This document shows, one piece after another, positions 761 to 63,660 of a stretch of DNA of 64,000 nt. The notes beneath the pieces were generated by a model. That model worked only from the letters and a program-made list of their open reading frames with translations. It did not search any database and was not told where the DNA came from. Both the position numbers and the translations under genes were made by a program. The stretch covers positions 62,001-126,000 of the forward strand of contig QPGO01000065.1 of assembly GCA_008632985.1 (NCBI GenBank), given 5' to 3'. The stretch comes from Psammoneis japonica (taxonomy: Eukaryota). Numbering within the stretch: the stretch's first letter is position 1; each line of letters opens with the position of its first letter.

Positions 761-780
761 CACTGCAAATGAGAATCACT
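761..780 (+). repeat. Left terminal inverted repeat of the CACTA-type element
   Basis: CACTGCAAATGAGAATCACT; 17/20 match to revcomp of 18528-18547. Confidence 0.75.
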
Positions 781-1492
781 CTGAATGAGCTGTTTTCGCT
801 CTAAATAAAAAACAAACAGAGCATTTTGCTCCGATTGCAAGTGCCAAACAATTGATTGTGGCTTTGCTCTGTTCAAGCCACAGTCAGAGCGACATGCTCT
901 GTGCACAAGACAATCAGAGCAAAATGCCAACATTTGCCCTGTTTGACCGCATTCAGAGGATGCCTTCGATTAAGTGCAATTGTTCAGGGCATTCGCTTCA
1001 AACAACTGCAGCCTCCTGCGACCTTTTACATTCTCAGAGCAAATGGTTTTTCTTCAAAGCAAACGAACAATGAACACACACACACACAACAAGACGTGCA
1101 GCGGAACATGACTCAGGCGGGACTCAGATGATTGGGTCCCATTCACGAATGAAGAGTCACGTGGTTTCTGGTCACAAGAATCACGGCGAACCGGGATGTT
1201 TGCGATCCAGGGACGATGGTCCCCCGTGATGTTTGACGTGACGTTTGGACATGTTGCTTTTAGTTTGACAGGACTGCAACTCAGAAGAAGCAGAAAAGCA
1301 GATTGTAATTTAGCGAGAGTGAGAAAAGTGAAGACTGTTAATTTTAGTTTTGTGTGCCACTGACAAGGTGCCAGTGGTGTCGGCATCTGGTTGTCCAACA
1401 AAGACGCAATGATGGACGATTCAAAGCGTCATTGGCGCATGTGCACGCATGCATTCATGGTTGCCAGTCAATGCTCGTAATCTCATTTTTGT

Positions 1493-4485
1493 TTGTGGCG
1501 ATCTCGACGAGCATCGTTGTTGCTCTGTTGTTGTCATTTGTCGCCTGTGTCAGCGCATCGCACACACAACACAATTTTTGCATTTCCGCCTTTGTCTGCA
1601 CAAGTCATGGCCTCCACAGCCTTCTCCATGTGCTGCAAACATTGCTTCTCGACTGTTCCATTGACTCAACATGACAACTCCAACAGCATCGTAAACATGG
1701 GTGATTGCCTCCATTCCGGCAAATGTCTCAACCCGGAGTGTTCAGTTGATTCCTTTTTTGTCTGCGAATGCTGCTGGAACAGCAGCAACACAAACAGCGG
1801 TGGTCGTCATCTTCCAATTCTCAAAGATTGGAAAACCTGCATTGAGCACGCCAAAACTCCAACTCATGTGCAATCCTTTGAAGCTTTGAAAGCCGCACCA
1901 ACAAGCAGTGCAAATGCCATGTGTGCGCCGGCGGAGCCTGCACATGACGAATGTTGGTGCAACGATGACAATGACGCCTCTGTTTCCGAGAGCAAGGAGC
2001 CTTCCAACCAAGATGATTGGATTTACGACGTCAATGATGCCGGCTCACGTCCTCCATTGCGCATTGATGATCTCCGACAAGGTTTTGATCCGCACTCCAA
2101 CAGCCCGGCCTTTTTTTGGCACGAGCATTTGCACCCCGGACAAGGCATCCAGAAATTGACAGCTGACGCTTTCGAATTGCCTGTCACCGAGGTGACCAAA
2201 GAAGAGGCCCATTTTTCACTTGTGATGGCTAGCCTGCTTTCACAACTCACCGAGAAACAATGTGAATTGTTGGCAGAATGCATGCTGCAAGCCACAAACA
2301 GCCGTGATCCAGACTTGTCCATTTTTCGTCGGACTCGTGTCCCCACTTCTGTGAAAGATTTTGAAATTTTGCATTTGTCCAGCAAACGTGCCATTGTGCC
2401 AAATTTGCCTCATCCTGTTCCCAGGAAAACCGATGATGGCAGTCATTCCCATGTTTCCTTTAAAGACGTGCTTGCAAATGAGTTGGCAAAAGCCACGCAA
2501 TTTGACAAGTTCCATTTTGATGCGGACGTCATTGTTCAAGATTCGCAACCTGCCATTTCGCACACACCGGCGGCGCATTCCTTGTTCATGGAACTTAAAG
2601 AAGATGTCGACGGTTTTGTGTTGCATCTTTGGGTGCAAGAATGGTGTGATGACTTCGATCCCAACGGCACGAAGAAGTCACGCAACCAAGTCTGGCTTAA
2701 CACGCACACCTGCTGCCCTCCTCCCAATTCTTCCAGTGGACGCCACACCTGCTTCATGGCAATGTTGTCCAAGGGAGAAAATCATGAAGTTGTGGAGACA
2801 ACATTTGAGCGCGAACTGCAGTCGTTGTCTGAAGAATGCCATTGGTTTTACCATGGTGGCCTGCAGAAGCTCACACGGGTTGAAGCTGGCAAACTCAGTG
2901 TTTGTGTGGATCGGCCTGAACATTCCTGCATGTTTCGTGTTGGAGACCACAATGGCAGCTGTTCAACGTTTTGGGAACATGCCTGTTGTGCAGATGGAAA
3001 CTGTTCTTTCAATCACTTGCCTCATTGTCAGCTCTGTCGCAAAGCACATGTGAGCAACCATTTTAGCACGTCCGAGGATCCTTCTGATGTCGCCGACAAT
3101 TCACAGGAAGAAGGAGCACCAGTGGATGGCGCAGTTGCAATCAACGTTCCTCCTGTTTGCCACATCAACACAGTGCACGCAGCTGCAAAATCCAATCTGC
3201 CTTGCCCAACACATCCAGCACCTTGGCTCAATCCCAAAGCACTTTCACGTTGTCATTGTGCACCAATGCACACCATTGGTCTGGGCAATGTTAAAAGTGA
3301 TTTCGAAATGATGTCCAAATTGTTCTCTCGATTTGAACTTCAGGCAACCTTTGGAAAGCAAGCAAACAAATGCTTGCGGTCCATCCAGTCCCTCCGATCA
3401 ACCAAATGTTTTGCGGCTCATCCACTGTCCACCAGCAAGTGGGGCACAGGTCCCTGGGTCAGTGAAAATTACTTCTTTTGGGCAAGGACAGTAAAATTTA
3501 TGGTTACGCTGCCTGTGCTTCACCAACAACGGGTGATGGACAATCACTCGGATTGTGCAGGTGTGTCACGGATGTTGCTTCGATTCGCTTCTGCCACACA
3601 AGCTTGTCTGAGCCGAGTCATGTCTTCGGAGCGCGTTGTTGGGGACCTTCACGAAATGGTTTTGATGCATTTGGATGCAATGGTCAAGATGGACATGTGG
3701 TTGATGAAAGCACCCTCAGATGAGGCAGACAACGATGCCATAGAAGGCAACGGTGAAGTTCAGAAGAAAAAGAAAAAAAGGTGAACTTTGTGAAATCTGT
3801 TTCACTTGGAATGCTGGGAGTCGCGGAATCCCACCAACATGATGGACCGGCCACTCTGCATGGGGAGGGTGACGATTCTGGAGAAAGTGGTGTGCAAACT
3901 GTGAGGCCAGAGGTCAGCATCAAACGCAGCAATGCAGACTGGCAAACAATCGCTTTGCATCACATTCACCAACAGGCAACCATTTCTTGGCTTTTAGAAC
4001 GTGACAGTGAGAAAGGTTCATCGAAGAACAGACGTCTAGATGGCATTTTCAAAATCTGCAGCAACTGGAACACATTGTTGGAGGCAAGACAGCAATGCCT
4101 TCCCTTTGCTGGCCTTGTGTCATCCGATTGCACTGTGTGGTTGTTGTTTCGACCAGTGGGTGAAAAAGGAGCCACTTGCTCCTCTGCAACTGCAGTTGCT
4201 TTAGAATTTGTGGATGAGGAAGGTGAAGAAATTTTGGACTTGTGTTGGATGGCGCCAGTTCAAGCAACAGACAGGAGAAAATCATTTGATGCGGTGACAG
4301 ATCTTTGCAACAGTTTGGGACATCAGTTTGTGCTGGCATTGCCAAGGATGGAAGATGATGGTGAAACGTTCCTAAACAGCTTTTATTGTGTCAGCCATCT
4401 GTGGAATGAAAGAACCAGAGATGGATGCTTTGTGAAAACGGAACTCAGCTTGGACGTTTTCGACGATTGGTTGACAGCCGGCTAA
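1493..4485 (+). pseudogene. CMC/CACTA-Plavaka-like DDE transposase, disrupted
   Basis: ORFs 1493-3784 and 3781-4485. Motifs EWCDDFDPN (first Asp), VCVDRPE, PMHTIGLGNVK (xMH...LG..K of CACTA-related transposases), GPATLHGEG..SGE, and an N-terminal CCHH finger. Only 3 Tyr in 763 aa. Confidence 0.65.
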
Positions 4486-4733
4486 CCATCAACTGCTCTG
4501 TCATCCGTCTCGGTTGACAATCCAGCCTGTGTGGGGGAGACAATGGCATGAGCAGTGCACGTGCTCCAATGGTGTGTGGACCCGTGAAGGAGCAGCGCAC
4601 ATGCTCTTTTGTTTAAAGACGCGCTGTTGTGGCCGACACGCAACTAGCTGCGGGGGACAAGAAGGACATGCGAGCTGGGCATCTGCTCTCATTTCATGTT
4701 CCTCTTTCTCTTTATGAAGCAGAACTGTGCAGA

Positions 4734-6530
4734 TTAGTCCCTCATTGCGTTCAACATTTTGTTTTTGGCCAAAATGTCCAACATCGCCTCTGGTGGATTA
4801 GACAGCAGTTTGTCAAAATTGAGTTCAAATGCAATTTGAATGGGGCCATGATCCCAGGTCAACCCGGCCCAATCATTGTCCTCACACAGTTCTTTGGCAA
4901 TCTCCTCCATCGTTTTTTCCTCACTTTTACATGAAAAGTTTTGGATTAATCCACCGGGAGGCAGCTCTTCGGGGTCACTGGAACCATCAAAGTGACAAAG
5001 AAAATTCGCCTCATCGTGGAAAACAAAAAATGACATTCCTGCAAAATGGACATCGCAGCAGTTTACCCTCCCTTTGCTGATCCAGAAGCGAAACATTTTG
5101 CAAAGAATGTTCTCAACAAAACGAATGGTGAAGTGAGTGTCTTTCTTGTCATCACCCCCGGGGTTGTTCAACTGCACGGTGAATGCACCCTGCATGGTTT
5201 GAGCCAAACGGAACATGTCCGCATCATCCATCTTGCCCAGTCCACATTCTTCGGCAATTTTTGTGTCAGGGAGGGAATCCTTTTTGCAGTGGCAACAATG
5301 CAGCATCCAAATGGGAAGCTGGCCAATTTCTGCCATGATCGCAATCGAATGATTGAGATGCAAGACGTCGCATTGCGGGGAGAATTCAGACAACTGATTC
5401 ATCAGTTTCTTGCAAATGGAGACGATGTCTTTGTTTTGTGGCTTGTTTGCATGCTCATTCCAAATGTCACAAATCCACTTTCCCTTTTTATCATTCTGTT
5501 TTTTCCATTCAGCCTTGGTTGGCAAGGGTGGTCTCTTGCTGCGTGACGCACATCGCAGAGGGATTCCTCTAGAATGTGCCTCTTTTACGTGGACCATCAT
5601 TTCGCAAATGAGACACCCCAATCCCGCAGGGGTCGCTTGGTGGCTGGAAGGCATTAACGGACAAAAGAACCAACGCAACTGCTCCAAAGCAATGTGACTG
5701 CGCCGGGCACACCTCGAAGCAAGTCTGAACAGCGACAACTTGCGGCAACGTAAGTGAGAATTTGTCAATCATTGCGACAATGAAGTGTAGAAGTTGCAGT
5801 CGCCTTTTAATGCATCGATTCCTTTGCATCCCTTAAATCCTGTCAAGTGATCACAGACAATTGCCGGCTCCAGTCGTTGCCGGTGCACGGGTGAGTTTTG
5901 GCAGGTGCGAATGGCTCGTGTTGTGATGGGCAAGGTGAGTCGAATCCTCTTCTCCGCAGTTTCTACAGAACTGCGGGTGCAAGCAATGGCAGCATCTCTT
6001 GTTTCTCCATCATTTGTGATTTTTGAAACAGACAAAACTGGGGTCATGTCTTTGTTTTGGCCGTTGCATTCATCCGAGTGGCAATCCGTAATTTTGCCAA
6101 ATTTGGCATTCGCCAGACGCAGTGCCTCCACGACATCATTTGCTGAGGCATCCGGCAACGAACCCGCATGGTCTTGACGTCGGTTTTTTGTCTCTTCATC
6201 GTGCCACAATCTAGATGTAAAAGCAGGATTCAGTGTCTCCGCAATTTCAGACATTGACTCAAAAAAAGGCATTGCTTCCTCAGTCCCTTTCCCAACTCGA
6301 GGCCGTGCAACACCATCAGCATGGCCTTCCCTTGCAGTGCTTGTGTTGGTGCACACGCCGAAATCTGCAAAGTGGTCCTTTGGTTGACGATGGGTCCCAG
6401 TTTTCTTGGGCTTGTTGCTTTTCTTTTTCTGAAAACGTTTTCTCTTGCCAGTTTTCTTGCCAACATTGCCTTTCCTTGTTTTCTTTCCCTGGCTGGTTGC
6501 TTTTCGACTCACGTTCATGGCATTTGTCAA
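4734..6530 (-). pseudogene. Cargo ORF broken by an in-frame TGA; possible TET/JBP-like 2OG-dioxygenase remnant plus HhH/aGPT-pyrophosphorylase-like domain
   Basis: ORFs 5769-6530 and 4734-5768 share a frame and are separated by one TGA. Motifs HSDECN...RDAAIACTRSS and FVENILCKMFR...DVHFAG. Motif resemblance only. Confidence 0.35.
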
Positions 6531-7287
6531 TCAGCACGTGCGATCGGTCCCAGTCAATGCAGTGGATTGGGTGTTTGTTTGGAAAGTGGTTGAGCACCAA
6601 CATGAAGTCATTGCAATGGTCGGAATCAACATCACACAAAGACCATTTGATGTCAGTTTCATCCTGTCCAAGTGTTGACGCCAAATCCGGAATTGGCACT
6701 TGGCAGTGGGGGATGTCTGCTCTGCTTGCCAAGCAAACCTGCAGTTTCGACTGGAAGACAACATGCAGATGGGTGGCATGCTTTTGCCTGCGTTCTCCAG
6801 ACAGTTTCCCCAAATTGTCAAGTGCTTTGGCTTTTCCAGAATTGTGACGGAAGTGAGCACTGTTCATCTCCTCAAACACAAAAACAACATTGAACATGTT
6901 TTTGGCATGCAAGCTCTCTTCTTGCAGCAGGGAACGGGACAACACTGTTTTCTCCCGCCGAGTCTTGCAGTTGCCAGTGAAAGTTGGATGCTGCATCTGC
7001 AAGGGCAGTGCTGCCTCAAAAGCGCTTGAATGGCAATCAGATGATTCGTCTCTGCTTCCATTGGGCAAATCAGAATCGGAGAAATCAATGGGAAGTGCTG
7101 ACACAACTGTGCCATCATGCCAATGCGATGATGATTGGTCACTCTGACTTGAGAAAACAGAATCAATGACATCGCTGTTTGTTGATTGTTCCTCGACGTG
7201 ACGCACAGAAGCCGAGTCCTCATGGCGTTTTGCTTCTTCCCGCATGTGCTGCTCACTCAGCAAGCAAAGCAACTGGTCTGCTGGTCT

Positions 7288-8331
7288 TCACTTGCGAGGA
7301 GGTGGAGACCGTCCCAGGGGAGATTCCAGGCTGCGTGACCTGGATGTGGCAAATCTTGTACAGTGTGAGATTGGACTGCCACTTCTGTTTCTGCGGAGTC
7401 GCATTTGACAAAATGGGGCCATGCCACAGTTGGTGGGTTGACTTGTTCTGCTTGAACTCCTTGAGCGGATGCTGTCATCTGCAGAACGTGCGGGAGGATG
7501 GCTTTTGTCCCAACCGGGACTCTCAGATTTCCTCGATGCACCCAACCTGTGCAAGCGCAATGAATGCCTGGGTTTGCGAACACGCGATCGACCCCGACAC
7601 CTGGATGGTGACCTCAACATTGTTGGAGACCTGTTTTTTGACCTGGAGGGTGACCTGCACCTGGATGGTGACCTGTGCGGTGACCTTTGTCTACGCCGAG
7701 GTGACAATCTAGACCTTTTGTTGGAAGAATCCAGAGACCTTTTGTTGGAAGAATCCAGAGACCTTCGACGAGACCATTGCGGTGAACTAGATGGAGACCT
7801 TTGGCATGACCTCTGCCGCGATTGCGATTGACCTTGGTGATCCCCACATGGAGAGTGGGGAACAGCACCACAACGTTCCCTGTAACTGCGCCGGGAACTT
7901 GAGTTGTGGCAACCCATGGATGGTGACCGACACCATCGCAGATGCCTTCGACGAGAATGAGACCTAGACCCAGAACAACGAGACCTTGATCGACAAGGAG
8001 AACCACGCGAAGAAGCTCCAGAACGACAACGATGTCTGGTCCAATGACGCGATCGAGACCGAGAACTTGACAAAGAGCAAGAGACCGAGAACTTGACCAA
8101 GACCGGGACGGCGATTGATGCCTTCATCGTTGGTGGGAATTCGACCTCGACCTGCATTGCCGTCCAGACAGTCTGCGTTCCCTGGATCCCTCGTTTGGAT
8201 TTGACCACAGCCGACCTGTGGAACTTTGAACAGGCGATTCGGATCTTTGACGAATCAAGCGACCCGGCGGATCTCTTGATGGACGCGCACTCCTTGTCCT
8301 TCTTCCCTTGGGAGCGCCGGATCTGCTCCAA
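7288..8331 (-). CDS. Arg/Ser-rich low-complexity cargo ORF (RS and RSPS repeats), probably degenerate
   Basis: Translation shows SRSRS, RSPSR and a duplicated SLDSSNKR; short 18-24 bp internal repeats at about 7590-7800. Confidence 0.4.
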   Translation of the reverse strand: MEQIRRSQGKKDKECASIKRSAGSLDSSKIRIACSKFHRSAVVKSKRGIQGTQTVWTAMQVEVEFPPTMKASIAVPVLVKFSVSCSLSSSRSRSRHWTRHRCRSGASSRGSPCRSRSRCSGSRSHSRRRHLRWCRSPSMGCHNSSSRRSYRERCGAVPHSPCGDHQGQSQSRQRSCQRSPSSSPQWSRRRSLDSSNKRSLDSSNKRSRLSPRRRQRSPHRSPSRCRSPSRSKNRSPTMLRSPSRCRGRSRVRKPRHSLRLHRLGASRKSESPGWDKSHPPARSADDSIRSRSSSRTSQPTNCGMAPFCQMRLRRNRSGSPISHCTRFATSRSRSLESPLGRSPPPRK

Positions 8332-9058
8332 GCGGGAGCATCACATTTGCCTTTTCCACGATGCATGGATGGTTGGAATTTGAGCAAGCAGATGCTGCAA
8401 TGAAAAACAATGAGAGCAGAACAGCTTCACAACTCCTTTGTCATTTGTGCGAGAATGTGATTTTGCGATGATGATGTCGCCTTCATGTGGTCGTGATCAA
8501 GAGATGATGTGTGTTGGGTGAGTCAGAACATCGGAATCCGGAATTTTGCATGTCATCCCCTCACGTGGCCAACTGGTTGAGGCCACCTGCAGCGCCACAA
8601 ACAGAACACCACAAAAATTCTGCACTCATCATAGAATTTGACAAGAAAACAAGTCCCCTCTTTTCTGTGACATCACTGCATTTGCCGCATGTCACAATGG
8701 CACAAATGTCGGAAAAGCACGCATCCATGACACCGCCGCTGACACTGCTGTTGTCATCAAACTTTGCTGTTTGTGCAATGCTGTTGTCATTCATCCTTCC
8801 ATTGCATGTTGTCATTTTTGTCAACTTGTTGACAAGTGTTGACAATGTTGTGACCTTTAGTGAAGGTTCATTGTGAGACACCACCAGGACCGAAACTTCA
8901 TCGCTGCTGCAAGAACAACACTGAGCTCACGGCGCAGTCTGCACATTGTTTCTTCATCGCGCATCTCAGACAATTTGGTGTGTGTGCTGCACTTTGTTGA
9001 CTCTTTACAATCATCATCAGGTGCTGCCACGAAATTGGTTGCAGACAAAGTCAGCAAC

Positions 9059-10570
9059 TTCCCTGCATCTCCGCGTCAACTGCTGACAATTGCACAGCAA
9101 CGGACGAGTGGGACTGCCAGTCCGTCGCCCAGCGACATTCCGCCAATCGGTTTTCAATGACAAGACCTGGAGAACTGGCTGGGGCACCCTCGTTGTGTTG
9201 CACAGTTTGAAGAAAAGGGGACCGGCTGATCTGGGTTGTGTTGGCAGACGGCGCAAGCTCCTTTTTCCTTGACATTGTCAAGAACACATGCATTCCAAGG
9301 CCACTGTTGTCGGTTGGTCGTCTCCGTCTGTTGCATCTCTTCCCTGTGTCTCCGCGTCAACTGCTGATGATTGCACAGCAACGGACGAGTGGGACTGCCA
9401 GTCCGTCGCCCAGTGACATTCCGCCAATCGGTTTTCAACAATGAGACCTGGAGAACTGGCTGGGGCACCCTCGTTGTGTTGCACAGTTTGAAGAAAAGGG
9501 GACCGGCTGATCTGGGTGGTGTTGGCAGACGGCGCAAGCTCCTTTTTCCTTGACGTTGTCAAGAACATGTGCACTCCAAGGCCACTGTTGTCGGTGGGTC
9601 GTCTCCGTCTGTCATGTCTCTTCCCTGCATCTCCGCGTCAACTGCTGACAATTGCACAGCAACGGACGAGTGGGACTGCCAGTCCGTCGCCCAGCGACAT
9701 TCTGCTGATTGGTCTTCAATGACAAGACCTGGAGAACTGGCTGGGGCACCCTCGTTGTGTTGCACAGTTTGAAGAAAAGGGGACCGGCTGATCTGGGTTG
9801 TGTTGGCAGACGGCGCAAGCTCCTTTTTCCTTGACATTGTCAAGAACACATGCATTCCAAGGCCACTGTTGTCGGTTGGTCGTCTCCGTCTGTTGCATCT
9901 CTTCCCTGTGTCTCCGCGTCAACTGCTGATGATTGCACAGCAACGGACGAGTGGGACTGCCAGTCCGTCGCCCAGTGACATTCCGCCAATCGGTTTTCAA
10001 CAATGAGACCTGGAGAACTGGCTGGGGCACCCTCGTTGTGTTGCACAGTTTGAAGAAAAGGGGACCGGCTGATCTGGGTGGTGTTGGCAGACGGCGCAAG
10101 CTCCTTTTTCCTTGACGTTGTCAAGAACATGTGCACTCCAAGGCCACTGTTGTCGGTGGGTCGTCTCCGTCTGTCATGTCTCTTCCCTGCATCTCCGCGT
10201 CAACTGCTGACAATTGCACAGCAACGGACGAGTGGGACTGCCAGTCCGTCGCCCAGTGACATTCCGCTGATTGGTCTTCAATGACAAGACCTGGAGAACT
10301 GGCTGGGGCACCCTCGTTGTGTTGCACAGTTTGAAGAAAAGGGGACCGGCTGATCTGGGTTGTGTTGGCAGACGGCGCAAGCTCCTTTTTCCTTGACATT
10401 GTCAAGAACACACATGTTCCAAGGCCACTGTTGTCGGTGGGTCGTCTCCGTCTGTCACATCTCTTCCCTGCATTTCCGCGTCTGTTGCCCACCGATGGTC
10501 CGCCAATTGGGTTTTCAATGATGAGACCTGGAAAACTGGCTGGGGCACCCTCGTTGTGTTGCACAGTTTG
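9059..10570. repeat. Tandem array of a 281-bp unit, 5 full copies plus 1 partial
   Basis: TTCCCTG unit starts at 9059, 9340, 9621, 9902, 10183 and 10464. Units 2 and 4 share all diagnostic variants (562-bp higher-order period). No TpA seen in the units. Confidence 0.95.
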
Positions 10571-10614
10571 ACGCAAATGAGGCAGCAGCAAAGGGAAGCG
10601 AGGATTCGCCTGCG

Positions 10615-13600: not shown

Positions 13601-14150
13601 GTTGGAGTTCGCCATCAGCATGTTGTTGGGACAAAAGCAGAAGCTTTGTCCTCCACCGGCTGCATCAATGAAGTGGTGTGCACACAAGAAGCGTCAGAAA
13701 ATGGTGGCTGGCAAGAGGGGATTCTTCGATTTGACCACCTGCGTTGCCGATGACATCGTTTTTTGTCGGTTGACAAACAATCACTGTGTTGCTTTGCATG
13801 GTGGTTGGATCTTCGACTCCAATCATGAATTCGCTCTTCCGGCAAAAGACATTCATTGGTTGAATTGGTGTTTGGGGAATGACACATTTGAAACAGATGC
13901 ACTGGTGGAAGATCCAAAATCAGCAGTGGAGGAAGCAGTTTTTTTTGAAATGCCGAAGGCTGTCCAAACAAGGTTGCGCAAATGCAAGCGGCAAGATGAT
14001 GCAATTGCAGGTCAATTCTTCTTACTTGGCATGGTTGTCGGGGCCAACGATTTCCAGGCATGCAGGCATTTGCGAGTCACCAATGTTTTGCTGACAAGCC
14101 CGGCCTTTTCTGCAGCACACAACAGTTGGCACGTTTGCGGCAGTGTGTGA
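10615..14150 (+). pseudogene. Large cargo protein (frameshift near 12040): acidic N-terminus, GNAT-like acetyltransferase region, C-terminal papain-like cysteine-peptidase-like region
   Basis: ORFs 10615-12054 and 12033-14150. IVDHVRV...NHGLCPFLISLAQ...KQCHCESLGFE resembles GNAT motifs A/B once H/C are reverted to Y. QQGEKDTCVFSSLAS...NHCVALHGGWIFDSN gives a Q-C-H-D arrangement. Confidence 0.5.
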
Positions 14151-46230: not shown

Positions 46231-46238
46231 TGTCGCGC

Positions 46239-49987: not shown

Positions 49988-49989
49988 CC

Positions 49990-55750: not shown

Positions 55751-56183
55751 GATTTGGCACTCCTCGCACCCAAGTTTAGATGGAGATGGACTGACTTGAC
55801 TCAACCTTGCCCGATGACTGTGACCTCTCGCCTGATCCATTTCGGAAGTTGGGGACTTCCGGCTCAAGATGACCCAGTCTAGTCTTCCGACTGTGACCGG
55901 TCAAACTTCGGTTTTCTCTTCTCCACTTTTCCAGCTTGATTGGAACAGGAACCCTGATCAAGGTGACTGGATCACACAAGCCCGGAAAAGCAGCATTCTT
56001 TTTAGTCTCTCTTGTCATGTCGGATTTCTTCGCCTCGGGTGTCTCGGATGATGCATTCATTGATTTGGCTCGTCAGCTGGAGTCTGACATCATCTCACCG
56101 TTCTCGTCGAGCTCTCCGGTGGCTCCCTCTCCTCAGGCTCGCCCCTCTGGGGCTGCGCAACAGGGGGGGGGGGGTTCGGGGGC

Positions 56184-58481
56184 TTGGGTCCCCGGGGCAT
56201 GGGCAAGGATGTCTCGGGGGGTCACAGTCATCCCCAATCGGACATTGACAGGGCGGAGTCAGGGGAAGTCATTTCCCACCCTCCAGGAACTCACGTTTTG
56301 GAAGGAGACGCATCCCGCCCGTTTCGGAAGGAAACCCGCTCATCCCGGGTGGGCTTCTTTGGGCGGGATTTGCCGGGTGATGTCGGAGGCACGCTCGAGA
56401 CGGGGGAGGAAGGTGCATCTTCTTCGTCCTCGCATGTGTCTTGTCATCGAATCACCTGGCTGGAGACTGCTGGAGCACCTCGGTGCTTGGGGATCAAGGG
56501 CGGAGGGGCCACCTTCTGCCTCAAGAAAGCAAGCGACTGCAACGTCAAGCATGAGGGCGGAAGGATGAATGTCCCGGTTGAGGGGATGATGGCGATTCTC
56601 AAGGCGCCGGATGCGGCCTTTTGTCAGCCCATCCTAGACGGAGGCAGCATGTCCGGTGAGGTCTCAGTCAAGTGGGAATCGGAGTCAGATGCCCTGGCCG
56701 GATGGCGACAGAAATTTTTGGTCCCAGACAACAGTGAACCCTTTTTCACTGAGGACGAGGTGGAGCCCGCCCTGAAGGAGTGTGAAAGGGTGGCTGATTT
56801 CAAGACACCGGCATGCAAGCAGCGGCCAGAACCCACCTCGCCTCTCGAAGACACCGCCCCGGAGAGGTTCGTCCCGCATGAGAAACAAATCCTCTCCACA
56901 CCGGCGCAATTCCTGGCGGCAAACAAGAGTCCGTCCGGGTTGGCTCGAGTGGTGCAATCGACGGAGGACGGGTTAAGGCAGGCCGGGGAGGCACTGGCCG
57001 ACCCAGGTGACAAGGCTGGGAAGCGTCTCCATGCTGCAGAGTCCATGCTCGACATTCTCAGCAGAAAACTGGATCAACTCGATGCCTCTCTTGGGGAACC
57101 GACCCAGGGGTTTGACGAGGCTCTACTCGCCCCTGCGCTTTGGGGCACTCTAGCAAACGTCGCGTCCCGGGAATCCGGGTCCCAATCCCTGGATCTAGGG
57201 GAGTGCATCACACAAGTGGAGACGGGTTGGCAAAACCAATCCAACAATTTAGTGAGAACGTTTGACGCGAGGTTCCAAGGCATGCAAGACCGGATGGGAT
57301 CTGCGGCTAGCCGCACGGATCTAGAAAGCCTGAAGAGGAACATGCTTCGCGTTTGTACACAGCCAACTGCAAAGGTCAGGTTGATGGAGGCTCAGCGCGG
57401 TTCGGGGTTCGGGGCTTCAGGAGTTTCATTTGATCATGGGTCCGTGGATGCACGCCTCACTTGCCTGGACCATGCAGTGAGTGAGCTACATGCAAAATCG
57501 GGTGAGTCCGCCATCAAGTTTTCAGGGGTTGGCATGTCGTCCTACGAGGAGTGCCAGGCCTGGATGACACAGCACTTCCCCTCGAGGGCTTGTGGGTGTT
57601 TGACAGATGTCGTCCTGCTCTTGGACCGCATCAAAGGAATCGAGCCCACCGCCCTGCATCATTTTTTATCTCAGTGGGCCAAGCGAATGAGCATGAACAT
57701 CGTGACCGAGGAGGACGCGAGAACTTTAGCGGGTTTCCAATGCCGCGTGCCCCGGATTTTCGACTCGGGATCGGCAAAGTCGGCTCAGACCTTGGGGTTG
57801 CACCCTTCCCACCTGGACAAGGTGGAGACTTGTGAGCATTGGTCGTCTGGCAATGTGGGCACGAAGCATTTCATCGAAGGGAAGATCGCCTTGACGGAAA
57901 ATGACATCATGGAGGACATCAACCAACGGATTAGACCGGGGACGTTTGAGAGCCAGGCAGTGCGTGATGCGTTGTCCAAATCGGTGGCTTTCCTGCGGGC
58001 GCTGGTGCAGTTCATCGACTCAACTTGTGCTTCTCTCACCGATCCAAGCAAGTTCTCGAAGAAGCAAGCGTGGTCCCTGACCTCCAAATTGACGCATCGC
58101 ATCTTTGAGGACATTCATAAAGCCCGTTCAAGGGTTTTTACTTCCATTTCGGGGACAGATCCAGACGCGGTGTGCAGCAAAATTTTGTGGGCAGTGTTTC
58201 GGACCCAGGACATTGTGGCCGAGCACACCTCCATGGGGTTCTCCAATCACCCGTCAATGGCTTCGGAACATGTCAAGTTTCTCGCGACCAATTCCGGCTT
58301 CAAAGTGGTTGCGGACTTGCAATCCACGGTCCTGACGTTGACGGAGAAGGCCAAAAACGCAAGCTCTGAGGCGAAATCAGCCCAGGCTCGTGGGGATGCG
58401 GCTCACATGGAACTCGGAAAATTGCGCACGGAAGTGAAGGACCCAACTCGGCGCCTCAAGACGCTTGAGAACAAGAAGTGA
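56184..58481 (+). CDS. Gag-like ORF1 with Cys/His finger and coiled coils (true start perhaps ATG 56018, frameshift at G-run 56163-56174)
   Basis: 765 aa; CLGIKGGGATFCLKKASDCNVKH finger; only 1 Tyr. Confidence 0.7.
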   Translation: MGPRGMGKDVSGGHSHPQSDIDRAESGEVISHPPGTHVLEGDASRPFRKETRSSRVGFFGRDLPGDVGGTLETGEEGASSSSSHVSCHRITWLETAGAPRCLGIKGGGATFCLKKASDCNVKHEGGRMNVPVEGMMAILKAPDAAFCQPILDGGSMSGEVSVKWESESDALAGWRQKFLVPDNSEPFFTEDEVEPALKECERVADFKTPACKQRPEPTSPLEDTAPERFVPHEKQILSTPAQFLAANKSPSGLARVVQSTEDGLRQAGEALADPGDKAGKRLHAAESMLDILSRKLDQLDASLGEPTQGFDEALLAPALWGTLANVASRESGSQSLDLGECITQVETGWQNQSNNLVRTFDARFQGMQDRMGSAASRTDLESLKRNMLRVCTQPTAKVRLMEAQRGSGFGASGVSFDHGSVDARLTCLDHAVSELHAKSGESAIKFSGVGMSSYEECQAWMTQHFPSRACGCLTDVVLLLDRIKGIEPTALHHFLSQWAKRMSMNIVTEEDARTLAGFQCRVPRIFDSGSAKSAQTLGLHPSHLDKVETCEHWSSGNVGTKHFIEGKIALTENDIMEDINQRIRPGTFESQAVRDALSKSVAFLRALVQFIDSTCASLTDPSKFSKKQAWSLTSKLTHRIFEDIHKARSRVFTSISGTDPDAVCSKILWAVFRTQDIVAEHTSMGFSNHPSMASEHVKFLATNSGFKVVADLQSTVLTLTEKAKNASSEAKSAQARGDAAHMELGKLRTEVKDPTRRLKTLENKK

Positions 58482-58520
58482 AGTTCACGGGGAGCGGAAG
58501 AACTGGGGGAGGATCCGGTC

Positions 58521-59840
58521 TTGATTGACAGGCCTGGCAACCCAAGGCACGTCACACGAGGCCGCAAAGCCTTCTCATTTCAAGGAGCATGCTCAGTTCT
58601 TGCTTCCGGTCCCCCAATTTGGCTTTTGTCCCTCAGACCAAAGGAATGGCCCACTTTGCATTGCTGTTCGGACAACGCTTCCACATCCCACTGGAGTCCC
58701 CTGTTGGTGGACATGTTCCAAACCCAACCAGGTGCTTCCTTGGCGCAGGTCGCCTGGTCCAGCGTGGGACACCTTGCTTCCCAGGTTAATCTCGCACTCG
58801 TGTCGGGCCCACCAACATTCCTCGAATCCATTGCGCATGTGATTCAATCCGCACCCGTGATTTTGATCCCCATGGGAAAATTCTCGAGGCGCAGTCTCCT
58901 TGGACTGTGCCAGTTTCAATGTCGGGAGATTGCTCATGCGGGGGTCGGAGGGGTCACTTCCTTCCGCACAACCCTGTTCTGACAAGGGGCACCCGCTCCG
59001 GCTTTTGACGAAGGCCTGCGGCGGTCCATTGGACATGTCATTGATCACAAGCCACCCGGACCGCCGTCGCCCCAACACCCCCGGGATCAGTTTTACACTG
59101 AGGCTGACCATCTCAATCCACAGTTCTTGGATCGACCGGTTGTGCACCCGTCTCATCGGTCTGCGACAGGTTGGGTCTCCCGCACTCTTTCTGTGGATGA
59201 AATGTTGGCCGCCTGGGATTTTCCTTTGCATTGCCGCACGCCTCGGGTGCACAGGGCTTTCGAGCAGGGCTTTTTGTTTGTCCCGTTGAACCTCCTCACT
59301 TTGTTTGTGGAAGCTTGCATTGACGATGCTCCCCAATGCTCGTCGGAGCCTGGGCGTCTGGCTGACAGGGACACGGTTGTCGAGGTCATGCAGCGTCAGG
59401 CTGGAACCTGGTTGCCTGGCCTTCAGCGGTTTTTGCCGCACACTTGGATTGATGTGTCTCTCATGATGGCGAAAGCTGCTGAGGGTGATGCAGTGGCGCC
59501 TCCATTTTGTCTGTGGGACAAGCGGATCACCCTGCTGTTCCCGGCCTTTGGGAAGGCTCTACTTGCCCTCCGGGCTTTAACCCACCAATGGTGGCGGCGG
59601 AGGACTTTTCGATCCTTCCTGTCCCACCTGCGCCGGGAACATGGTCTGACTTGGGCCGGGTGGTTGGTCATTCAACGCCGGCGTTTTGGGGACACCAGGG
59701 GGCGTCTTCAAGGGGGGGTTTGTCGCCACCCTCCGCTCCCTTCTTTGCTGCTTGACGCACACCTTGGAGCCGAGGTGTTGACACAAGCATTGGCCAACTC
59801 ATGGTGGAACTGGGACCGAGGTTCTTCCCTCCCATTTTAG
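58521..59840 (+). pseudogene. Pre-RT region with possible degenerate C5-cytosine methyltransferase C-terminal motifs
   Basis: HAGVGGVT (~58935) and RTLSVDEMLAAWDFP (59181-59225), the latter resembling C5-MTase motif IX (RxLTxRExARLQGFP). Confidence 0.35.
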
Positions 59841-59864
59841 CAATGGCCCACCCCGGAGCAGAGG

Positions 59865-61916
59865 TTGTGCGCTCGGGATGGAATCCAAATCTTTGTTCAA
59901 GGTCCACTTCCCCGCAATCGTCGGCAACAGCAAATTTGGGGTTCGGAGCAGGAGATCCTGCAGATGGCAGACAAGATGCAGAAAGTCCCGGCCCAAGGAC
60001 ACATCTGCCAGGGCAAGGTGATTAGCCCAACGGACAATTTCTGGGTCCCAAAGACTGTCCGGGTCGAGCCCCAGAATGGGCGGTTGGTGGAAATCGTCGA
60101 AGACGTGCGCATGGTTTACAATGGCACGTCATCCAGTTTGAACGATGCTTTGTGGGCACCCTCCTTTTTCTTGCCCACACCCGCCTCGGCACTGGGCTGC
60201 ATGACCAGCTCCACCTTCTCGGTGGACCTCGACCTCGCTGACATGTTCTTAAATTTCTTCATGGATCCCACCATCCGGCCATGTGCGGGGATCAACCCAA
60301 CCCCACTCAAGCCGTGTCTGTCAACGACGGGGCCGGCCACGGGGAGCACACTTTGGTTTGAACAATGGAACCGCCCATTTGTGGGGATGCGCCCCAGCCC
60401 CCACTTGGCGGTGCGAGCCTTCCATTGGGCTGACGAGATTGCCAGAGGTGATCCACAACATGCGTCCAACATTGTGGGGCATGACAAGGTGATCCTCAAC
60501 TTGCCGGGGGACCCAAATTTCCAGATGGAAAAACCGTTTGTCATGAAGTGGAACTCGTGTCGGGAGGAAATCGCTGGGGACATTAAAACTTTCGTGGACG
60601 ACTTGCAAGGCATGGGAGCTGGCGAGGAAGCCGCATGGCAAGTGGCTCATCAAATGGCCTCTTGATTGCAGTGTCTGGGTCTGCAGAATGCGGCCCGAAA
60701 AGTGCGCCCTCCTTCTCAGGTCGAAACGGGAGCTTGGGTGGGCGCCATCTTCAGAGTCATCGACAACGATGTTGCCCAGTCTGTGGCTCAGGCCAAATGG
60801 GACAAAGCCAACAAGGTCATCATTGCCAATTTGCTTGGTCACTGTGCTGATCGGCCCGGGGGCTCCCTTCCTGTGTTTGACTTCAAGGATTTGGAGCGGA
60901 AACGGGGTTTTCTTGTTCACCTTGCGATGACTCATTCTTTTCTAACTCCATTCTTGAAAGGTGTCCATTTGACCCTCGATTCGTGGCGCCCAAACCGGAA
61001 GGCTGATGGTTGGGCGATGACTGGAAAGGAGTTCGCGAGTTGGATCCACCATCTCGCGGAGAAGCAGGGCCTAGAACCGTCAGTGGTCGCCAAAGGGCCA
61101 AGGGACCGTCCGCCACCTCAGCAGGTCACGGCGGTCCCTCGTTTGTTTGTGGACTTGACAGCTGTGTCCCGAATTGTGGAGCCCCCGACCCCCACTGTGG
61201 TGATCATTCGTCCGGCGAAAATCGTCGCAGTCCTCTGCGGTTTTGGTGATGCATCTGGAAAAGGCCTTGGCACGTCTCTGGAAACATCGGACGGATCAAT
61301 TGTCTTTCGAATCGGTGTGTGGGGCGAGGAGGAACTGGGAAATTCCTCGAATTGGAAGGAATTGTCCAACACAGTCGATGCCATCCAGGAACTTGGAGAG
61401 GGGGGCGAATTGACGGGCACGTGTTTGTTCTTTTTCACTGACAACTCAGTTGCTGAATTGGCTTGGTGCAAGGGCACATCCTCCAGCCCTCTCCTGCTCA
61501 AGCAAATTGTTCGGCTGAAATCATTAGAAGCCAAGCATGGGATTGGGCTGCATCTCATCCATGTCTCGGGAGGTCGGATGATGGCGCAGGGTGCGGACGG
61601 AGTCTCCAGGGGAGCATTGTCGGAAGGGGTTATGAACGGAGCCAAAATGTTGTCGTTCGCACCCCTTCACCTCGCCGCCACTGATCGGTCTCCCTCTCTT
61701 TTCACGTGGATCCGATCCTGGGCTGGTGCCCCACCTCCGGAGCTGCTGACCCCCTTGGAGTGGTGCCAGAAGGGTCACGACATTGCCGGGTGGAATTGCC
61801 TTTACCACGAGGCAATCAAGATGCCCCGGTTCAAATCAGGCACTTGGGTTTGGGCACTGCCCCCGGCTGCAGCAAGAGCTGCTCTGGAAGAGCTCCGTGT
61901 CGCTGGGATTAAATGA
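59865..61916 (+). pseudogene. Reverse transcriptase plus RNase H (DIRS type), in-frame TGA at 60663
   Basis: DLDLADMFLNF, GMRPSP, TFVDDL; GFGDASG, SSNWKEL, FTDNSVAE, ADGVSRG. Confidence 0.9.
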
Positions 61917-62110
61917 CAAACATCATTCAGCATGTTCGTCTGCCCACGGTTGATGACGCCGGAGTGGCAGAAGCAGTTGCACAAGGCGGCGGATCTTGTG
62001 TTCACTGTTCCGGCTGGGGGGAGGTCCTTCTGGCCAGGTGAAATGTTCGAGCCACTGCCAGTTGGTCTTCTCTTTCCGTTTGTTTCCTGCTGCCCTTGGC
62101 AGCTTTGGGG
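61840..62110 (+). pseudogene. Degenerate DIRS DAM-like (N6-adenine MTase) domain
   Basis: WALPPAAA...FVCPRLMTPEW resembles the NPP...P.W...W pattern found after RNase H in DIRS elements. Confidence 0.45.
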
Positions 62111-62338
62111 AACCCCAAAAATGCATGCTGTGGACCGGTCCTTGCAACGAATGTGGCCGGACGCTGCGGTGGACGAAAGGCACATTCTGTGCAAATGTTG
62201 TGCACAATGTGGGAATCTGGCCGGCATGTCGGAAGGTGTGGTGTCCAGGTTGTCATGCTTCGAGAAAAAGCACAACATTCCATCTGGGAGGGACCCTGAC
62301 GGACGACCCTCAAAACGACGACGCCCAAATTCTCGGGG

Positions 62339-63660
62339 GTGACTGCCCATGGTTGGATGACAATGTTTGGTTTCGGAAGCCCCAGGACAAAAACAAGTTT
62401 GTGCGTGCTCGGGTTGGAGACCATCTTGTGGTGGCATTTGAGTGCGATTCATGTGTCTTTCACAAGCTGTGCCAGAGGGAACCTGTGCCCACTTCACCTT
62501 GAGACGAGGTTGCCCCAGCTTGTGTTCGGCGGGTTGTCTTGGATGCTTTTTGGAGCAGGGAGACCACTGTGGTTGAAGCGAATGCAGCAAAAGTTGGGCG
62601 GGGCTTAACCCCATCTGAACGTCTGGGCCTGACGGGCCCTCACCTCGAACCAGGCCCGCTGCCGCCCCATGATCACTGTGGGTGCGAGGTCGTGATGCAG
62701 ATCGTTTTAGCGTCGACGACTGCAGGGAAGCACTCGGAGTCGCATGCCCAATTTGATGCGATCCGAAAATTGCGCACTGCATGCTCGAATCAGGTGCGGG
62801 CCTCTGCCCAGGCTAACTCACGAGCTTTGGCTTTGGGAGATTTGGAAGGAAAACAGTGTCTCCGGATGTGTGAAGACCCGCGCGCCTCACTTTGGTTCCA
62901 ACGTTTTATGACCGGCTGCAAGAGATGGATGGGCCAAGACTGGAGACCCGACAGGGCGACATCAGTGGACATCATGCAACACCTCATGCCTCGGGTCGAG
63001 GAGAAGGCTCTCCGAGCCCCAGGGGAGGCTGATCGATTCATGTGCCTCACCTGTGGGTTGCACTTTGCGGCCAGCTACGTCTTGTCCCTCTGGGGCCCAG
63101 AAGGTCCACTCATGGACTTGGGCACACTGGCGACGCATCCACCAAGACATGCGGATTGTGCTGCAGTCCCTCTTTTGGGACGAGTGAAGGGAGAACACGG
63201 GGAGCGGCAGCACCTCCTCCCAAGTGTGAATGTGACTGGCTCAGGGATTGACCTTCGGTTTTGGGTGGAGACGGCAGCATCGTTGCACTGGGGTCGTCGA
63301 CGATCTCGCGGACCAGCCATGTCAGATGTGGACGGCAAAGTCTTGTCCACAAAAGACCTCAACACTTTTCTGCATGAAGTGCTGGGAGACATCTATGATG
63401 ACCACCCAAGCTTGTTCGCAGCTGACATCACCTCTGTTGCTGACACACAGGATAAATGCGACGTGAGCCGCTCGTTCCAGAGGGGATCTGACTCTCGCGC
63501 CATCGCTCAAAAGGCACCCGAAGATGACATCGACGTTGTCAACCATTGGAAAAGGAAGGAGAGGTCAGGGGCGGCCCGACCCACCCACAAAATGTGGCAA
63601 CACTGCGCCGACATTGCTCTTCTCTTGCCTTCGTTCCTGCAATGCACCAAGGCCATGTGA
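62339..63660 (+). pseudogene. Tyrosine recombinase, catalytic residues mutated
   Basis: SLWGPEG (expected LRGxE), GRVKGE, SRSFQRGS (expected RSxRRG), WQHCAD (expected HYAD, catalytic Tyr). Confidence 0.85.

What the first reader, a model, noticed from the sequence alone, without database searches (positions are those of the whole stretch)
761..63660. Transposon-restricted TpA>TpG/CpA hypermutation: a candidate 'reverse-RIP' genome-defence system
Seen: TpA is scarce in all TE blocks but normal in the host islands. Tyr counts are 3/763 aa (CACTA transposase), 5/1239 (copia Pol) and 1/765 (DIRS Gag), versus 14/340 in the host gene at 32892-33914. Conserved Tyr positions read Cys (TAY>TGY) or His (TAY>CAY), and Leu CTA reads Pro CCA, in four unrelated element classes. 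Known: fungal RIP and 5mC decay are C>T and create TpA or TpG; neither removes TpA. Inference: a host process installs A>G at TpA on both strands of silenced repeats. Candidate chemistry is DNA adenosine deamination (TadA-family enzymes favour a TA context) or a mutagenic thymine/adenine modification. I know of no description of such a system.
Basis: partly seen in the sequence, partly recalled or inferred. Interest (0 to 1): 0.97.

Follow-up and report, generated by a model that had tools for sequence, protein, structure and literature searches.

The report
TpA-erasing hypermutation of diatom transposons
In this diatom DNA almost every T-A step inside the transposon blocks has been rewritten to T-G or C-A while the genes next door are untouched, the footprint of a transposon-directed mutation process reported so far only once, in an unrelated alga.

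Summary
Three blocks (47.2 kb) hold 5.4 TpA per kb. The two gene islands hold 44 per kb (Fisher p = 5e-227). The edges are sharper than 100 nt. The loss is a mutation, not native composition. At 37 columns where homologues of three element families keep Tyr, the window keeps 6 and reads Cys 12 times and His 12 times. Five tandem copies differ almost only by linked CA/TG double differences. A 114-nt piece differs from an unmutated relative by TA>TG or TA>CA at 8 of 9 internal sites. Thirteen environmental relatives of one family have normal TpA. Both strands are hit equally, and a DNA transposon and a satellite are affected too, so the process acts on DNA. RTAY sites are erased and YTAR sites partly survive. 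Ordinary CpG decay runs alongside and supplies about 40% of the TG/CA excess. The host is a raphid pennate diatom. The claim of no prior description is outdated: a 2026 preprint shows TpA-only hypermutation of integrated viruses in Bigelowiella natans. I found no report for diatoms. This is a new member of a very recently described, mechanistically unsolved kind.

The parts
5..18093 (.). TpA-depleted block 1
   Evidence: TA obs/exp 0.10, CG 0.64, TG 1.59, CA 1.58, 116 TA. Sub-blocks are listed.
761..5291 (+). Candidate CACTA-type DNA transposon. Its termini are CACTGCAAA...TTTGCAGTG and its degenerate transposase-like reading frame lies at 1511-4479, with one frame change near 3760.
   Evidence: 9-nt perfect inverted termini. 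tblastn of intact roughly 1100-aa homologues covers 1511-4479. 84 homologues found, many multi-copy, none of four tested with a Pfam domain. Tyr is 0.4% against about 3% in homologues. No target-site duplication was seen.
9058..10489 (.). 281-nt tandem array (5 copies) with no TpA
   Evidence: Copies are 84-93% identical in nucleotides but 99.3-99.8% in purine/pyrimidine letters. There are 28 variable columns, 26 of them transition-only. 10 linked CA/TG double sites cover 20 of these columns. 13 CpG sites are intact in all five copies.
18096..24074 (.). Island 1 with normal TpA
   Evidence: TA obs/exp 0.62, CG 0.97.
23315..23675 (.). 361-nt palindrome that ends at the single N (23676). It carries an unmutated relative of the piece at 29892-30005.
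   Evidence: Self reverse-complement match of 96.4%. RTAY sites are retained.
24077..32768 (.). TpA-depleted block 2
   Evidence: TA obs/exp 0.10, CG 0.64. Summed contig depth is 1200-3000 over most of 24001-30003 and at 30671-31337, against about 150 in unique DNA.
25362..29586 (+). Copia-type pol with one frame change near 28940
   Evidence: RVT_2 hit at 5.9e-10. Best homologue at 7.9e-252, 44% identity. tblastn extents are. At 17 conserved Tyr columns: 3 Tyr, 8 Cys, 3 His.
29892..30005 (+). Mutated LTR-like piece
   Evidence: Against the reverse complement of 23397-23510, 8 of 9 internal differences are TA>CA or TA>TG, 3 of 11 TA are kept, and identity in R/Y letters is 100%.
32770..43552 (.). 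Island 2 with normal TpA. It includes a conserved diatom gene at 32892-33959 (-).
   Evidence: TA obs/exp 0.67, CG 1.01. The gene has 288 homologues, the best at 72% identity, with named hits in Cylindrotheca, Nitzschia, Fistulifera and Bacillariaceae.
43559..63996 (.). TpA-depleted block 3
   Evidence: TA obs/exp 0.08, CG 0.60. An X1 contig of 1039 nt covers 43348-44000 across the edge with 1 difference.
58983..63657 (+).
   Evidence: The 416-aa piece 60666-61913 has 130 homologues of about 1300 aa, some from Cylindrotheca and Skeletonema. One homologue has a weak RVT_1 hit. At 9 conserved Tyr columns: 1 Tyr, 4 His, 2 Cys.

Best explanation
The nuclear genome of this raphid pennate diatom subjects transposon and repeat DNA to a DNA-level hypermutation. 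It converts the A of TpA to G on either strand (TpA>TpG or TpA>CpA). It runs almost to saturation and stops within tens of bases of the element's edge. It prefers R-T-A-Y sites and spares Y-T-A-R sites, and in young elements it is several times faster than the ordinary 5mCpG decay in the same blocks. The result is inactivated elements: Tyr becomes Cys or His, Ile becomes Val or Met, and TAA/TAG stops are lost, so false long ORFs appear. These steps are shown here: direction, dinucleotide specificity, strand symmetry, confinement to blocks and flank preference. These steps are inferred. The chemistry is most likely enzymatic adenine deamination to inosine by a TadA/ADAT2-family deaminase (my odds about 0.55). 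The enzyme is probably recruited to silenced, methylated chromatin or guided by homology or small RNA. The process is probably the same kind as the one measured in mutation-accumulation lines of Bigelowiella natans.
For: Depletion and balance: TA is 1591 below a normal-like expectation, CG is 1141 below, TG is 1249 above and CA is 1138 above. AA is nearly unchanged at 74.9 against 78.9 per kb.
Direction and purity: the tandem array has 10 CA/TG double sites with no copy keeping CG, while 13 CpG are intact in all copies, so the ancestor at these sites was TA. 26 of 28 variable columns are transitions. The LTR-like piece has 8 of 9 differences as TA>TG or TA>CA.
Protein level: Tyr is kept at 6 of 37 conserved columns, with Cys 12 and His 12. 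Of 25 first-position A>G replacements, 15 follow a T, against a 26.5% background (p = 4e-4).
Not native to the elements: 13 of 13 metagenome relatives of the CACTA-like family have TA obs/exp of 0.43-0.89. Homologues have a median of 3.6% Tyr.
Strand symmetry: Cys:His is 12:12, and TG and CA counts are similar in each block.
Flank rule: RTAY makes up 10 of 253 surviving TA in the blocks against 218 of 731 in the islands. YTAR makes up 127 of 253 against 134 of 731. ATAT survives at 0 and ATAC/GTAT at 0.003 of the island density.
Speed: the copia block has TA obs/exp 0.13 while CG is still 0.79.
The same signature occurs elsewhere. P0317 differs from its 78.8%-identical relative P0300 mainly by Y>C 20, Y>H 16, I>T 11, V>A 8 and T>A 7.
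Precedent: the B. natans preprint reports that 230 of its 231 mutations in the two viral regions are A>G or T>C and that all of these fall on TpA.
Against: No raw reads were seen, only contigs of one sample with an unrecorded library type. A base-calling artefact is therefore unlikely but not formally excluded.
No genome or proteome is held, so no deaminase candidate, methylation map or genome-wide TE-versus-TpA test was possible.
A TE-derived 114-nt piece, and the first roughly 400 nt upstream of and into the copia gag (23677-24074), keep TpA including RTAY sites. Either not all element DNA is hit or the assembly is chimeric at the N.
Of the 17 best-supported differences from other genomic copies shown for the block, 9 are CpG-type and only 2 are TpA-type. 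Current divergence is therefore driven by CpG decay, and ongoing TpA activity is not shown.
Only 1 of 150, 1 of 84 and 0 of 120 homologues in public protein sets are Tyr-poor, so the process is not general in diatoms.
Confidence: 0.82

Rival explanations
1. Same targeted TpA process, different chemistry. A TET/JBP-type dioxygenase oxidises thymine in TpA to 5hmU or 5-formyl-U, which mispairs with G and gives T>C (equivalent to A>G on the other strand).
For: The sequence alone cannot tell which base of the palindromic TpA is attacked, because outcomes are symmetric. That oxidised thymine is mutagenic towards T>C, and that related protists put 5hmU in TpA, is recalled knowledge and comes from no call.
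Against: Near-pure transitions (26 of 28 columns) fit deamination more simply. Excision repair of oxidised T would be expected to add transversions and indels. The B. natans authors favour ADAT2.
Confidence: 0.12
2. Error-prone repair synthesis in methylated repeats, as with Pol eta, whose hotspot is WA. Frequent T:G mismatches from 5mC deamination would trigger patch repair that misreads TpA.
For: CpG decay and TpA loss occur in the same blocks. The Pol eta WA>WG preference is recalled knowledge.
Against: AA is almost untouched (74.9 against 78.9 per kb) while TA falls by 88%. Changes are almost purely transitions. The young copia has lost about 80% of its TpA with only about 20% CpG loss.
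Confidence: 0.04
3. Sequencing or assembly artefact. A modified base at palindromic TpA in repeat DNA is systematically miscalled, giving G on one strand and C on the other, so the consensus shows TG or CA.
For: The predicted outcome, a random TG or CA at each TA, matches what is seen. The library type of the only holder runs is not on record, and they come from one sample that may be the assembly's own source.
Against: X1 contigs are exact 31-mer assemblies at depth of about 50-160. They match unique parts with 0 differences over 471-592 nt, hold 62% of the sampled words of 25001-35000 (78% of which is block), and cross the 43552 edge with 1 difference. TG/CA states are inherited in register between alternate tandem copies (1,3,5 against 2,4). 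The same protein-level signature is seen in two proteins from other data sets. The B. natans mutations were called from Illumina reads.
Confidence: 0.04
4. Editing before integration. A-to-I editing of element RNA (ADAR- or ADAT-like) is fixed by reverse transcription.
For: Two of the three identified families are retroelements.
Against: The pattern is strand-symmetric (Cys 12, His 12). A DNA transposon with TIRs and a non-coding tandem array are equally affected. Copies of the tandem array diverged in place.
Confidence: 0.02
5. No hypermutation. The elements are natively TpA-poor (codon usage or foreign origin), and the TG/CA excess comes from CpG decay alone.
For: CpG decay is real in the blocks (CG obs/exp 0.20-0.79), and 9 of 17 shown inter-copy differences are CpG-type.
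Against: Relatives have normal TpA (13 of 13 loci) and keep Tyr where the window has Cys or His. The CpG deficit (1141) cannot supply the TG+CA excess (2387). Non-coding parts are equally depleted.
Confidence: 0.01

Closest known systems
TpA-specific hypermutation of integrated NCLDV and virophage DNA in Bigelowiella natans (Mettrop et al., bioRxiv 10.64898/2026.01.13.699255; I read the abstract, Results, Discussion and a term search)
   Same: A:T>G:C transitions only, at TpA only, giving TpG or CpA depending on strand. The process is confined to foreign DNA beside normally mutating host DNA. A long-term footprint of low TpA with high CpA+TpG also marks CDS with DDE and RT domains.
   Different: The host is in another supergroup branch (Rhizaria against a stramenopile diatom). 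There the rate was measured in mutation-accumulation lines and depletion is mild in the active regions (Rho TpA 0.45 for the NCLDV). Here no rate is measured but depletion is near saturation (0.03-0.13) across every transposon block of a 64-kb window. A flank rule (RTAY erased, YTAR spared) is seen here; the preprint's text holds neither 'flanking' nor 'trinucleotide' and names no flank beyond TpA in the sections read, and its figures and supplements were not seen.
Repeat-induced point mutation (RIP) of Neurospora and other fungi
   Same: Repeat- or transposon-confined transition hypermutation with sharp edges that destroys element ORFs and skews dinucleotides.
   Different: RIP is C>T at CpA and creates TpA, lowering GC. 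Here A>G at TpA destroys TpA and raises GC (blocks 0.49-0.52, islands 0.475-0.479). Dependence on duplication and on a premeiotic stage could not be tested.
5-methylcytosine deamination decay of methylated repeats
   Same: It produces TpG/CpA excess in silenced elements and is present here too (CG obs/exp 0.20-0.79).
   Different: It cannot remove TpA. It is slower than the TpA loss in the young copia.
TadA/ADAT2-ADAT3 adenosine deaminases, including amphioxus ADAT2 reported to deaminate A and C in DNA (PMC10354150; search listing and start of the abstract only)
   Same: Their natural substrate has U/T directly 5' of the edited A. This is recalled knowledge (U33-A34 of tRNA). Bacterial TadA recoding TAC Tyr to TGC Cys in mRNA is also recalled. 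That matches T-A-Y and Tyr>Cys here.
   Different: No enzyme was identified here. The known enzymes act on tRNA or ssRNA loops, not on chromatin-embedded dsDNA domains.
APOBEC3 and ADAR hypermutation of retroelements and viruses
   Same: Deaminase-driven inactivation of parasitic nucleic acids.
   Different: APOBEC gives C>T (G>A) on one strand of cDNA, and ADAR edits dsRNA and favours a 3' G (recalled). Here the pattern is strand-symmetric, prefers a 3' pyrimidine and includes a DNA transposon and a satellite.

Membership tests
B. natans-type TpA hypermutation of foreign DNA | Changes are almost only A:T>G:C transitions | tested here: met
   26 of 28 variable columns in the tandem array are transition-only, and identity in R/Y letters is 99.3-99.8%. 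The 114-nt pair is 100% identical in R/Y letters.
B. natans-type TpA hypermutation of foreign DNA | Changes fall on TpA and give TpG or CpA | tested here: met
   TA is 5.4 against 44.2 per kb while AA is 74.9 against 78.9. 8 of 9 differences in the LTR-like pair are of this type. There are 10 CA/TG double sites. Tyr>Cys 12 and Tyr>His 12 of 37 columns.
B. natans-type TpA hypermutation of foreign DNA | Confined to foreign or mobile DNA next to normal host DNA | tested here: met
   Five segments with edges sharper than 100 nt. The blocks hold copia, CACTA-like and retroelement pol genes. The islands hold a conserved diatom gene.
B. natans-type TpA hypermutation of foreign DNA | Directly measured, roughly 1000-fold raised de novo rate, active only in some lines | not testable with these tools
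   Needs mutation-accumulation lines or pedigrees. Only contigs of one sample were available.
Fungal RIP | C>T transitions (CpA>TpA) that raise TpA | tested here: not met
   TpA is lost, not gained, and GC rises.
Fungal RIP | Triggered by sequence duplication above a length threshold | tested here: inconclusive
   Multi-copy depth is seen over the copia, but CpG-poor depleted parts lie at single-copy depth at 90% likeness or more. Short tandem repeats in the islands (127 nt x 3.7, 84 nt x 4.6) keep TpA.
5mC deamination decay | CpG loss with matching TpG/CpA gain and no effect on TpA | tested here: not met
   CpG loss is present (-1141), but TpA loss (-1591) is larger and is needed to balance the TG+CA gain of 2387. 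It is a co-occurring process, not the explanation.
RNA-level (ADAR-like) editing of retroelements | A>G on the transcribed strand only, retroelements only | tested here: not met
   Cys 12 against His 12. A TIR element and a satellite are equally depleted.
TadA/ADAT2-family DNA adenine deamination | A deaminase with the HxE-PCxxC site that acts on repeat DNA, and inosine in that DNA | not testable with these tools
   No genome or proteome is held for this window. Only the T at -1 and Y at +1 preference is compatible.

The most novel reading that the evidence does not exclude
Diatoms, or at least this lineage, possess a saturating RIP-like genome defence of opposite polarity. A chromatin- or homology-guided DNA adenine deaminase erases R-T-A-Y sites on both strands of every class of transposon, faster than 5mC decay. 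Because the same signature is measured in a chlorarachniophyte, the system would be ancient or recurrent across the SAR supergroup and would be a natural double-strand-DNA adenine editor.
Probability: 0.4. Interest if true: 0.85.

Novelty: new member of a known kind. Interest (0 to 1): 0.68.

Why it matters
Until 2026 the only known repeat-directed hypermutation of nuclear DNA was fungal RIP (C>T). One preprint now reports a TpA-specific A>G process in a rhizarian alga, with no enzyme identified. A saturated footprint of the same process in a diatom matters in three ways. First, it shows the process is not a curiosity of one species and that it hits ordinary transposons of several classes, not only integrated viruses. 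Second, it supplies a flank rule (RTAY erased, YTAR spared) and a speed relative to 5mC decay that any candidate enzyme must reproduce. Third, it moves the problem into a group with transformable, sexual laboratory species and major ecological weight. A natural enzyme that deaminates adenine in chromatin DNA would also interest base-editing work. On the practical side, such blocks have few TAA/TAG stops (2.4 and 1.6 per kb against 10.5 and 9.1). They therefore produce long false ORFs on both strands and Pfam-invisible element proteins, which misleads gene callers and repeat annotators.

Tried and rejected
Own genome search: no genome is held, so there was no genome-wide profile and no deaminase search.
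Pfam on 17 and then 34 block ORFs: only the copia RVT_2 passed, and all other hits were noise. Four intact homologues of the CACTA-like family and four of five of the pol family also lack Pfam hits. 'CACTA' rests on the termini only, and 'DIRS' is unverified.
Rfam and tRNA scans of the window found none.
Sequencing runs: no RNA holder is listed. X2 covers only island parts and X3 covers nothing. I draw no conclusion on expression or absence from this.
Read laying showed only 40 of 337 difference sites, so no context spectrum of inter-copy differences could be built.
LTR pairs: none were found by nucleotide or R/Y self-comparison apart from the 114-nt piece, so an LTR-pair clock was not possible.
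Paralogous proline-rich repeat gene pieces (18.8 kb against 42.7-43.2 kb): the differences are mixed and not informative.
Deciding whether the enzyme reads the base 5' of T or 3' of A: among Tyr codons preceded by a pyrimidine, Cys:His is 6:4, read by eye from the site lists. That is too few to decide.
Earlier findings of this scan: none for this genome and none relevant by words.
Literature: seven searches found no report of TpA-directed hypermutation in diatoms. One search was rejected for a malformed term and not repeated. The preprint's supplements are closed and were not seen; they may hold flank-context data.

Full report
**1. The observation**

The window as a whole has TpA obs/exp of 0.25, with CpA 1.44 and TpG 1.41. 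A two-state model on 'T followed by A' splits it into five segments.

| Segment | State | TA obs/exp | CG obs/exp | TG and CA obs/exp |
|---|---|---|---|---|
| 5-18093 | depleted | 0.10 | 0.64 | 1.59, 1.58 |
| 18096-24074 | normal | 0.62 | 0.97 | 1.20, 1.16 |
| 24077-32768 | depleted | 0.10 | 0.64 | 1.55, 1.50 |
| 32770-43552 | normal | 0.67 | 1.01 | 1.05, 1.15 |
| 43559-63996 | depleted | 0.08 | 0.60 | 1.45, 1.55 |

The depleted segments total 47,219 nt. In them A follows T at 253 of 11,636 T. In the islands it does so at 741 of 4,362 T (Fisher p = 5e-227). The edges are abrupt: at 32770 the TA count per 200 nt jumps from 1-3 to 14, and the other three edges behave likewise.

**2. The organism and the contents of the blocks**

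No genome is held for this window. The conserved ORF 32892-33959 (-) in island 2 has 288 homologues. The best is 72% identical, and the named ones come from Cylindrotheca, Nitzschia, Fistulifera and Bacillariaceae. The host is therefore a raphid pennate diatom whose own proteins are not in that collection.

Three element families were identified in the blocks:
- 25362-29586 is a copia pol. It has an RVT_2 hit, 20,115 library hits with the best at 7.9e-252, and one frame change.
- 1511-4479 belongs to a family of roughly 1100-aa, often multi-copy proteins with no Pfam domain. It lies between the inverted termini CACTGCAAA (761) and TTTGCAGTG (5291), which is the CACTA terminus with TA read as TG. 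No target-site duplication was seen, so the class is plausible but not proven.
- 58983-63657 is a degenerate retroelement pol. Its homologues of about 1300 aa occur in Cylindrotheca and Skeletonema, and one has a weak RVT_1 hit. DIRS identity was not verified.

The remaining depleted DNA is unidentified.

**3. The loss is a mutation, and its direction is TA>TG or TA>CA**

- *(a) The tandem array.* The five copies of the 281-nt array at 9058-10489 are 84-93% identical in nucleotides but 99.3-99.8% identical once purines and pyrimidines are collapsed. Of 28 variable columns, 26 are transition-only. Twenty of them lie in 10 linked sites where some copies read CA and the others TG. No copy keeps CG or TA at these sites, while 13 CpG sites are intact in all five copies and only 4 are partly decayed. 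The ancestor of the 10 sites was therefore TA, resolved to TG or CA independently.
- *(b) The LTR-like piece.* The piece 29892-30005 inside block 2 has an unmutated relative in island 1 (reverse complement of 23397-23510). Eight of the 9 internal differences are TA>CA or TA>TG, and 3 of 11 TA survive.
- *(c) Conserved residues.* I aligned the window's translation of each family to 30 homologues: the longest 30 of the 150, 84 and 120 listed hits, leaving out the Tyr-less P0217 and P0317. In columns where at least 60% of homologues agree, Tyr is kept at 6 of 37, with Cys 12, His 12 and other residues 7. Ile is kept at 22 of 47, with Val 12 and Met 6. All other residue types are kept at 65-95%. 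Of 25 replacements that need A>G at codon position 1, 15 follow a T, against a background of 26.5% (p = 4e-4).
- *(d) Relatives elsewhere.* The family is not natively TpA-poor. All 13 metagenome loci that encode relatives of the CACTA-like protein have TA obs/exp of 0.43-0.89. Homologue sets have about 2.3-3.6% Tyr, against 0.3-0.4% in the window's copies.

**4. A second process runs alongside**

CpG is also depleted, at 0.59-0.79 in most sub-blocks. It falls to 0.20-0.23 in 30006-32768, 43559-46000 and 50001-52500.

| Dinucleotide | Difference from an island-like expectation |
|---|---|
| TA | -1591 |
| CG | -1141 |
| TG | +1249 |
| CA | +1138 |

About 87% of the two deficits reappears as TG+CA, with TpA the larger source. 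Arg>Gln and Arg>stop at conserved Arg columns of the pol show the CpG component in proteins. In the young, multi-copy copia, TA obs/exp is already 0.13 while CG is still 0.79. The TpA process is therefore several-fold faster there.

**5. Properties that bear on mechanism**

- *Strand symmetry.* Cys:His is 12:12, TG and CA counts are similar in each block, and CA and TG states are mixed along single tandem copies. Together with an affected TIR element and an affected satellite, this excludes editing of RNA or of one cDNA strand before integration.
- *Flank preference.* Relative to the islands, ATAT survives at 0, ATAC/GTAT at 0.003, ATAG/CTAT at 0.035 and GTAC at 0.065. TTAA survives at 0.33 and CTAA/TTAG at 0.41. 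RTAY makes up 10 of 253 surviving TA, against 218 of 731 in the islands. YTAR makes up 127 of 253, against 134 of 731.
- *Specificity.* AA is almost unchanged, which speaks against a Pol-eta-like WA process.
- *Timing.* In the tandem array most TG/CA states are shared by copies 1, 3, 5 against copies 2, 4, while some differ within these sets. Mutation therefore went on while the array grew.
- *Targeting.* Short tandem repeats inside the islands (127 nt x 3.7 and 84 nt x 4.6) keep their TpA. Local repetition alone is not the trigger.

**6. Is it an artefact?**

One sample's runs hold the stretch. X1's contigs have word depth of about 50-160 on unique DNA and match it with 0 differences over 471-592 nt. 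They hold 62% of the sampled 31-mers of 25001-35000, of which 78% lies in the block. One contig crosses the 43552 edge 442 nt into block 3 with a single difference. Summed depth of 1200-3000 over the copia shows many genomic copies. Their differences from the window are mostly transitions: 239 of the 321 places counted by kind of change for X1.

The library type is not on record, the runs may be the assembly's own source, and I saw no raw reads. I therefore rate an artefact at about 4%, not zero. The in-register inheritance of TG/CA states in the array also speaks against it. So does the same signature in proteins from other data sets: P0217 has 0% Tyr, and P0317 keeps 1 of 18 conserved Tyr with 10 Cys and 6 His. 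P0317 differs from its 78.8%-identical relative P0300 mainly by Y>C 20, Y>H 16, I>T 11, V>A 8 and T>A 7.

**7. What is known**

Seven searches turned up one relevant paper, bioRxiv 10.64898/2026.01.13.699255. I read its abstract, Results, Discussion and a term search. In mutation-accumulation lines of Bigelowiella natans, two integrated viral regions mutate about 1000 times faster than the rest of the genome. Of the 231 mutations there, 230 are A>G or T>C, and the authors state that all of these fall on TpA. TpA-depleted CDS are enriched for DDE transposase and RT domains, and an ADAT2 homologue is proposed. The paper does not mention diatoms.

I found nothing on diatoms, on saturation of whole transposon blocks, or on the RTAY/YTAR rule in the text I could read; figures and supplements were not available. 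Amphioxus ADAT2 is reported to deaminate A and C in DNA (PMC10354150, listing and start of the abstract only).

**8. Verdict**

This is a real, DNA-level, transposon-confined TpA>TpG/CpA hypermutation superimposed on ordinary CpG decay, in a diatom. It belongs to the kind first reported in B. natans in 2026 and is a new member of that kind in a distant lineage, in a far more advanced state. The chemistry is inferred only. My odds are about 0.55 for adenine deamination by a TadA/ADAT2-type enzyme, 0.12 for thymine oxidation and 0.04 for error-prone repair, with the rest unknown.

Three things remain unexplained. An unmutated element piece sits in a palindrome beside the single N. TpA density is intermediate in the roughly 400 nt before the copia block edge. 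It is not known what defines the sharp domain edges.

Noticed in passing
window 23315-23676: A 361-nt near-perfect palindrome (96.4% self reverse-complement) ends exactly at the window's only N. This looks like a fold-back contig end at a scaffold join. It carries an unmutated copy of the element piece found mutated at 29892-30005, and the next roughly 400 nt (23677-24074) have intermediate TpA density with RTAY sites kept.
   Followed up: partly
window 30006-32768, 43559-46000, 50001-52500: Three sub-blocks combine the lowest TpA (obs/exp 0.03-0.04) with very low CpG (0.20-0.23) and TG/CA of 1.7-1.8. 43614-43729 and 52153-52042 match in inverted orientation in purine/pyrimidine letters, so these may be the ends of one older, large element.
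   Followed up: partly
window 18794-18966 (+) and 42741-43165 (-): Inverted paralogous pieces of a proline-rich gene built of 84-nt repeats (GGGRPP...AVHDGY motif) lie near the inner edges of the two depleted blocks that flank the central 25 kb.
   Followed up: partly
window 36906-37372: A 127-nt tandem repeat (3.7 copies, 97% matches), TpA-rich and unmutated, lies inside island 2.
   Followed up: no
window 1-64000, depleted blocks: Because TAA and TAG are nearly gone (2.4 and 1.6 per kb against 10.5 and 9.1 in the islands), 46 of the 53 stop-to-stop ORFs of 180 aa or more overlap the blocks, many overlapping each other on both strands. Most must be spurious.
   Followed up: yes
window 32892-33959 (-): A protein conserved across pennate and centric diatoms (288 homologues, up to 72% identity) has no Pfam family. 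Its stop codon lies only about 120 nt from the sharp edge of block 2.
   Followed up: no
proteins P0317 and P0300: This is a mutated and unmutated pair of the CACTA-like family from environmental data, 78.8% identical. Nearly all of the excess differences are of the TpA type, so the same process acted recently in some sampled organism. Its DNA could not be fetched.
   Followed up: partly
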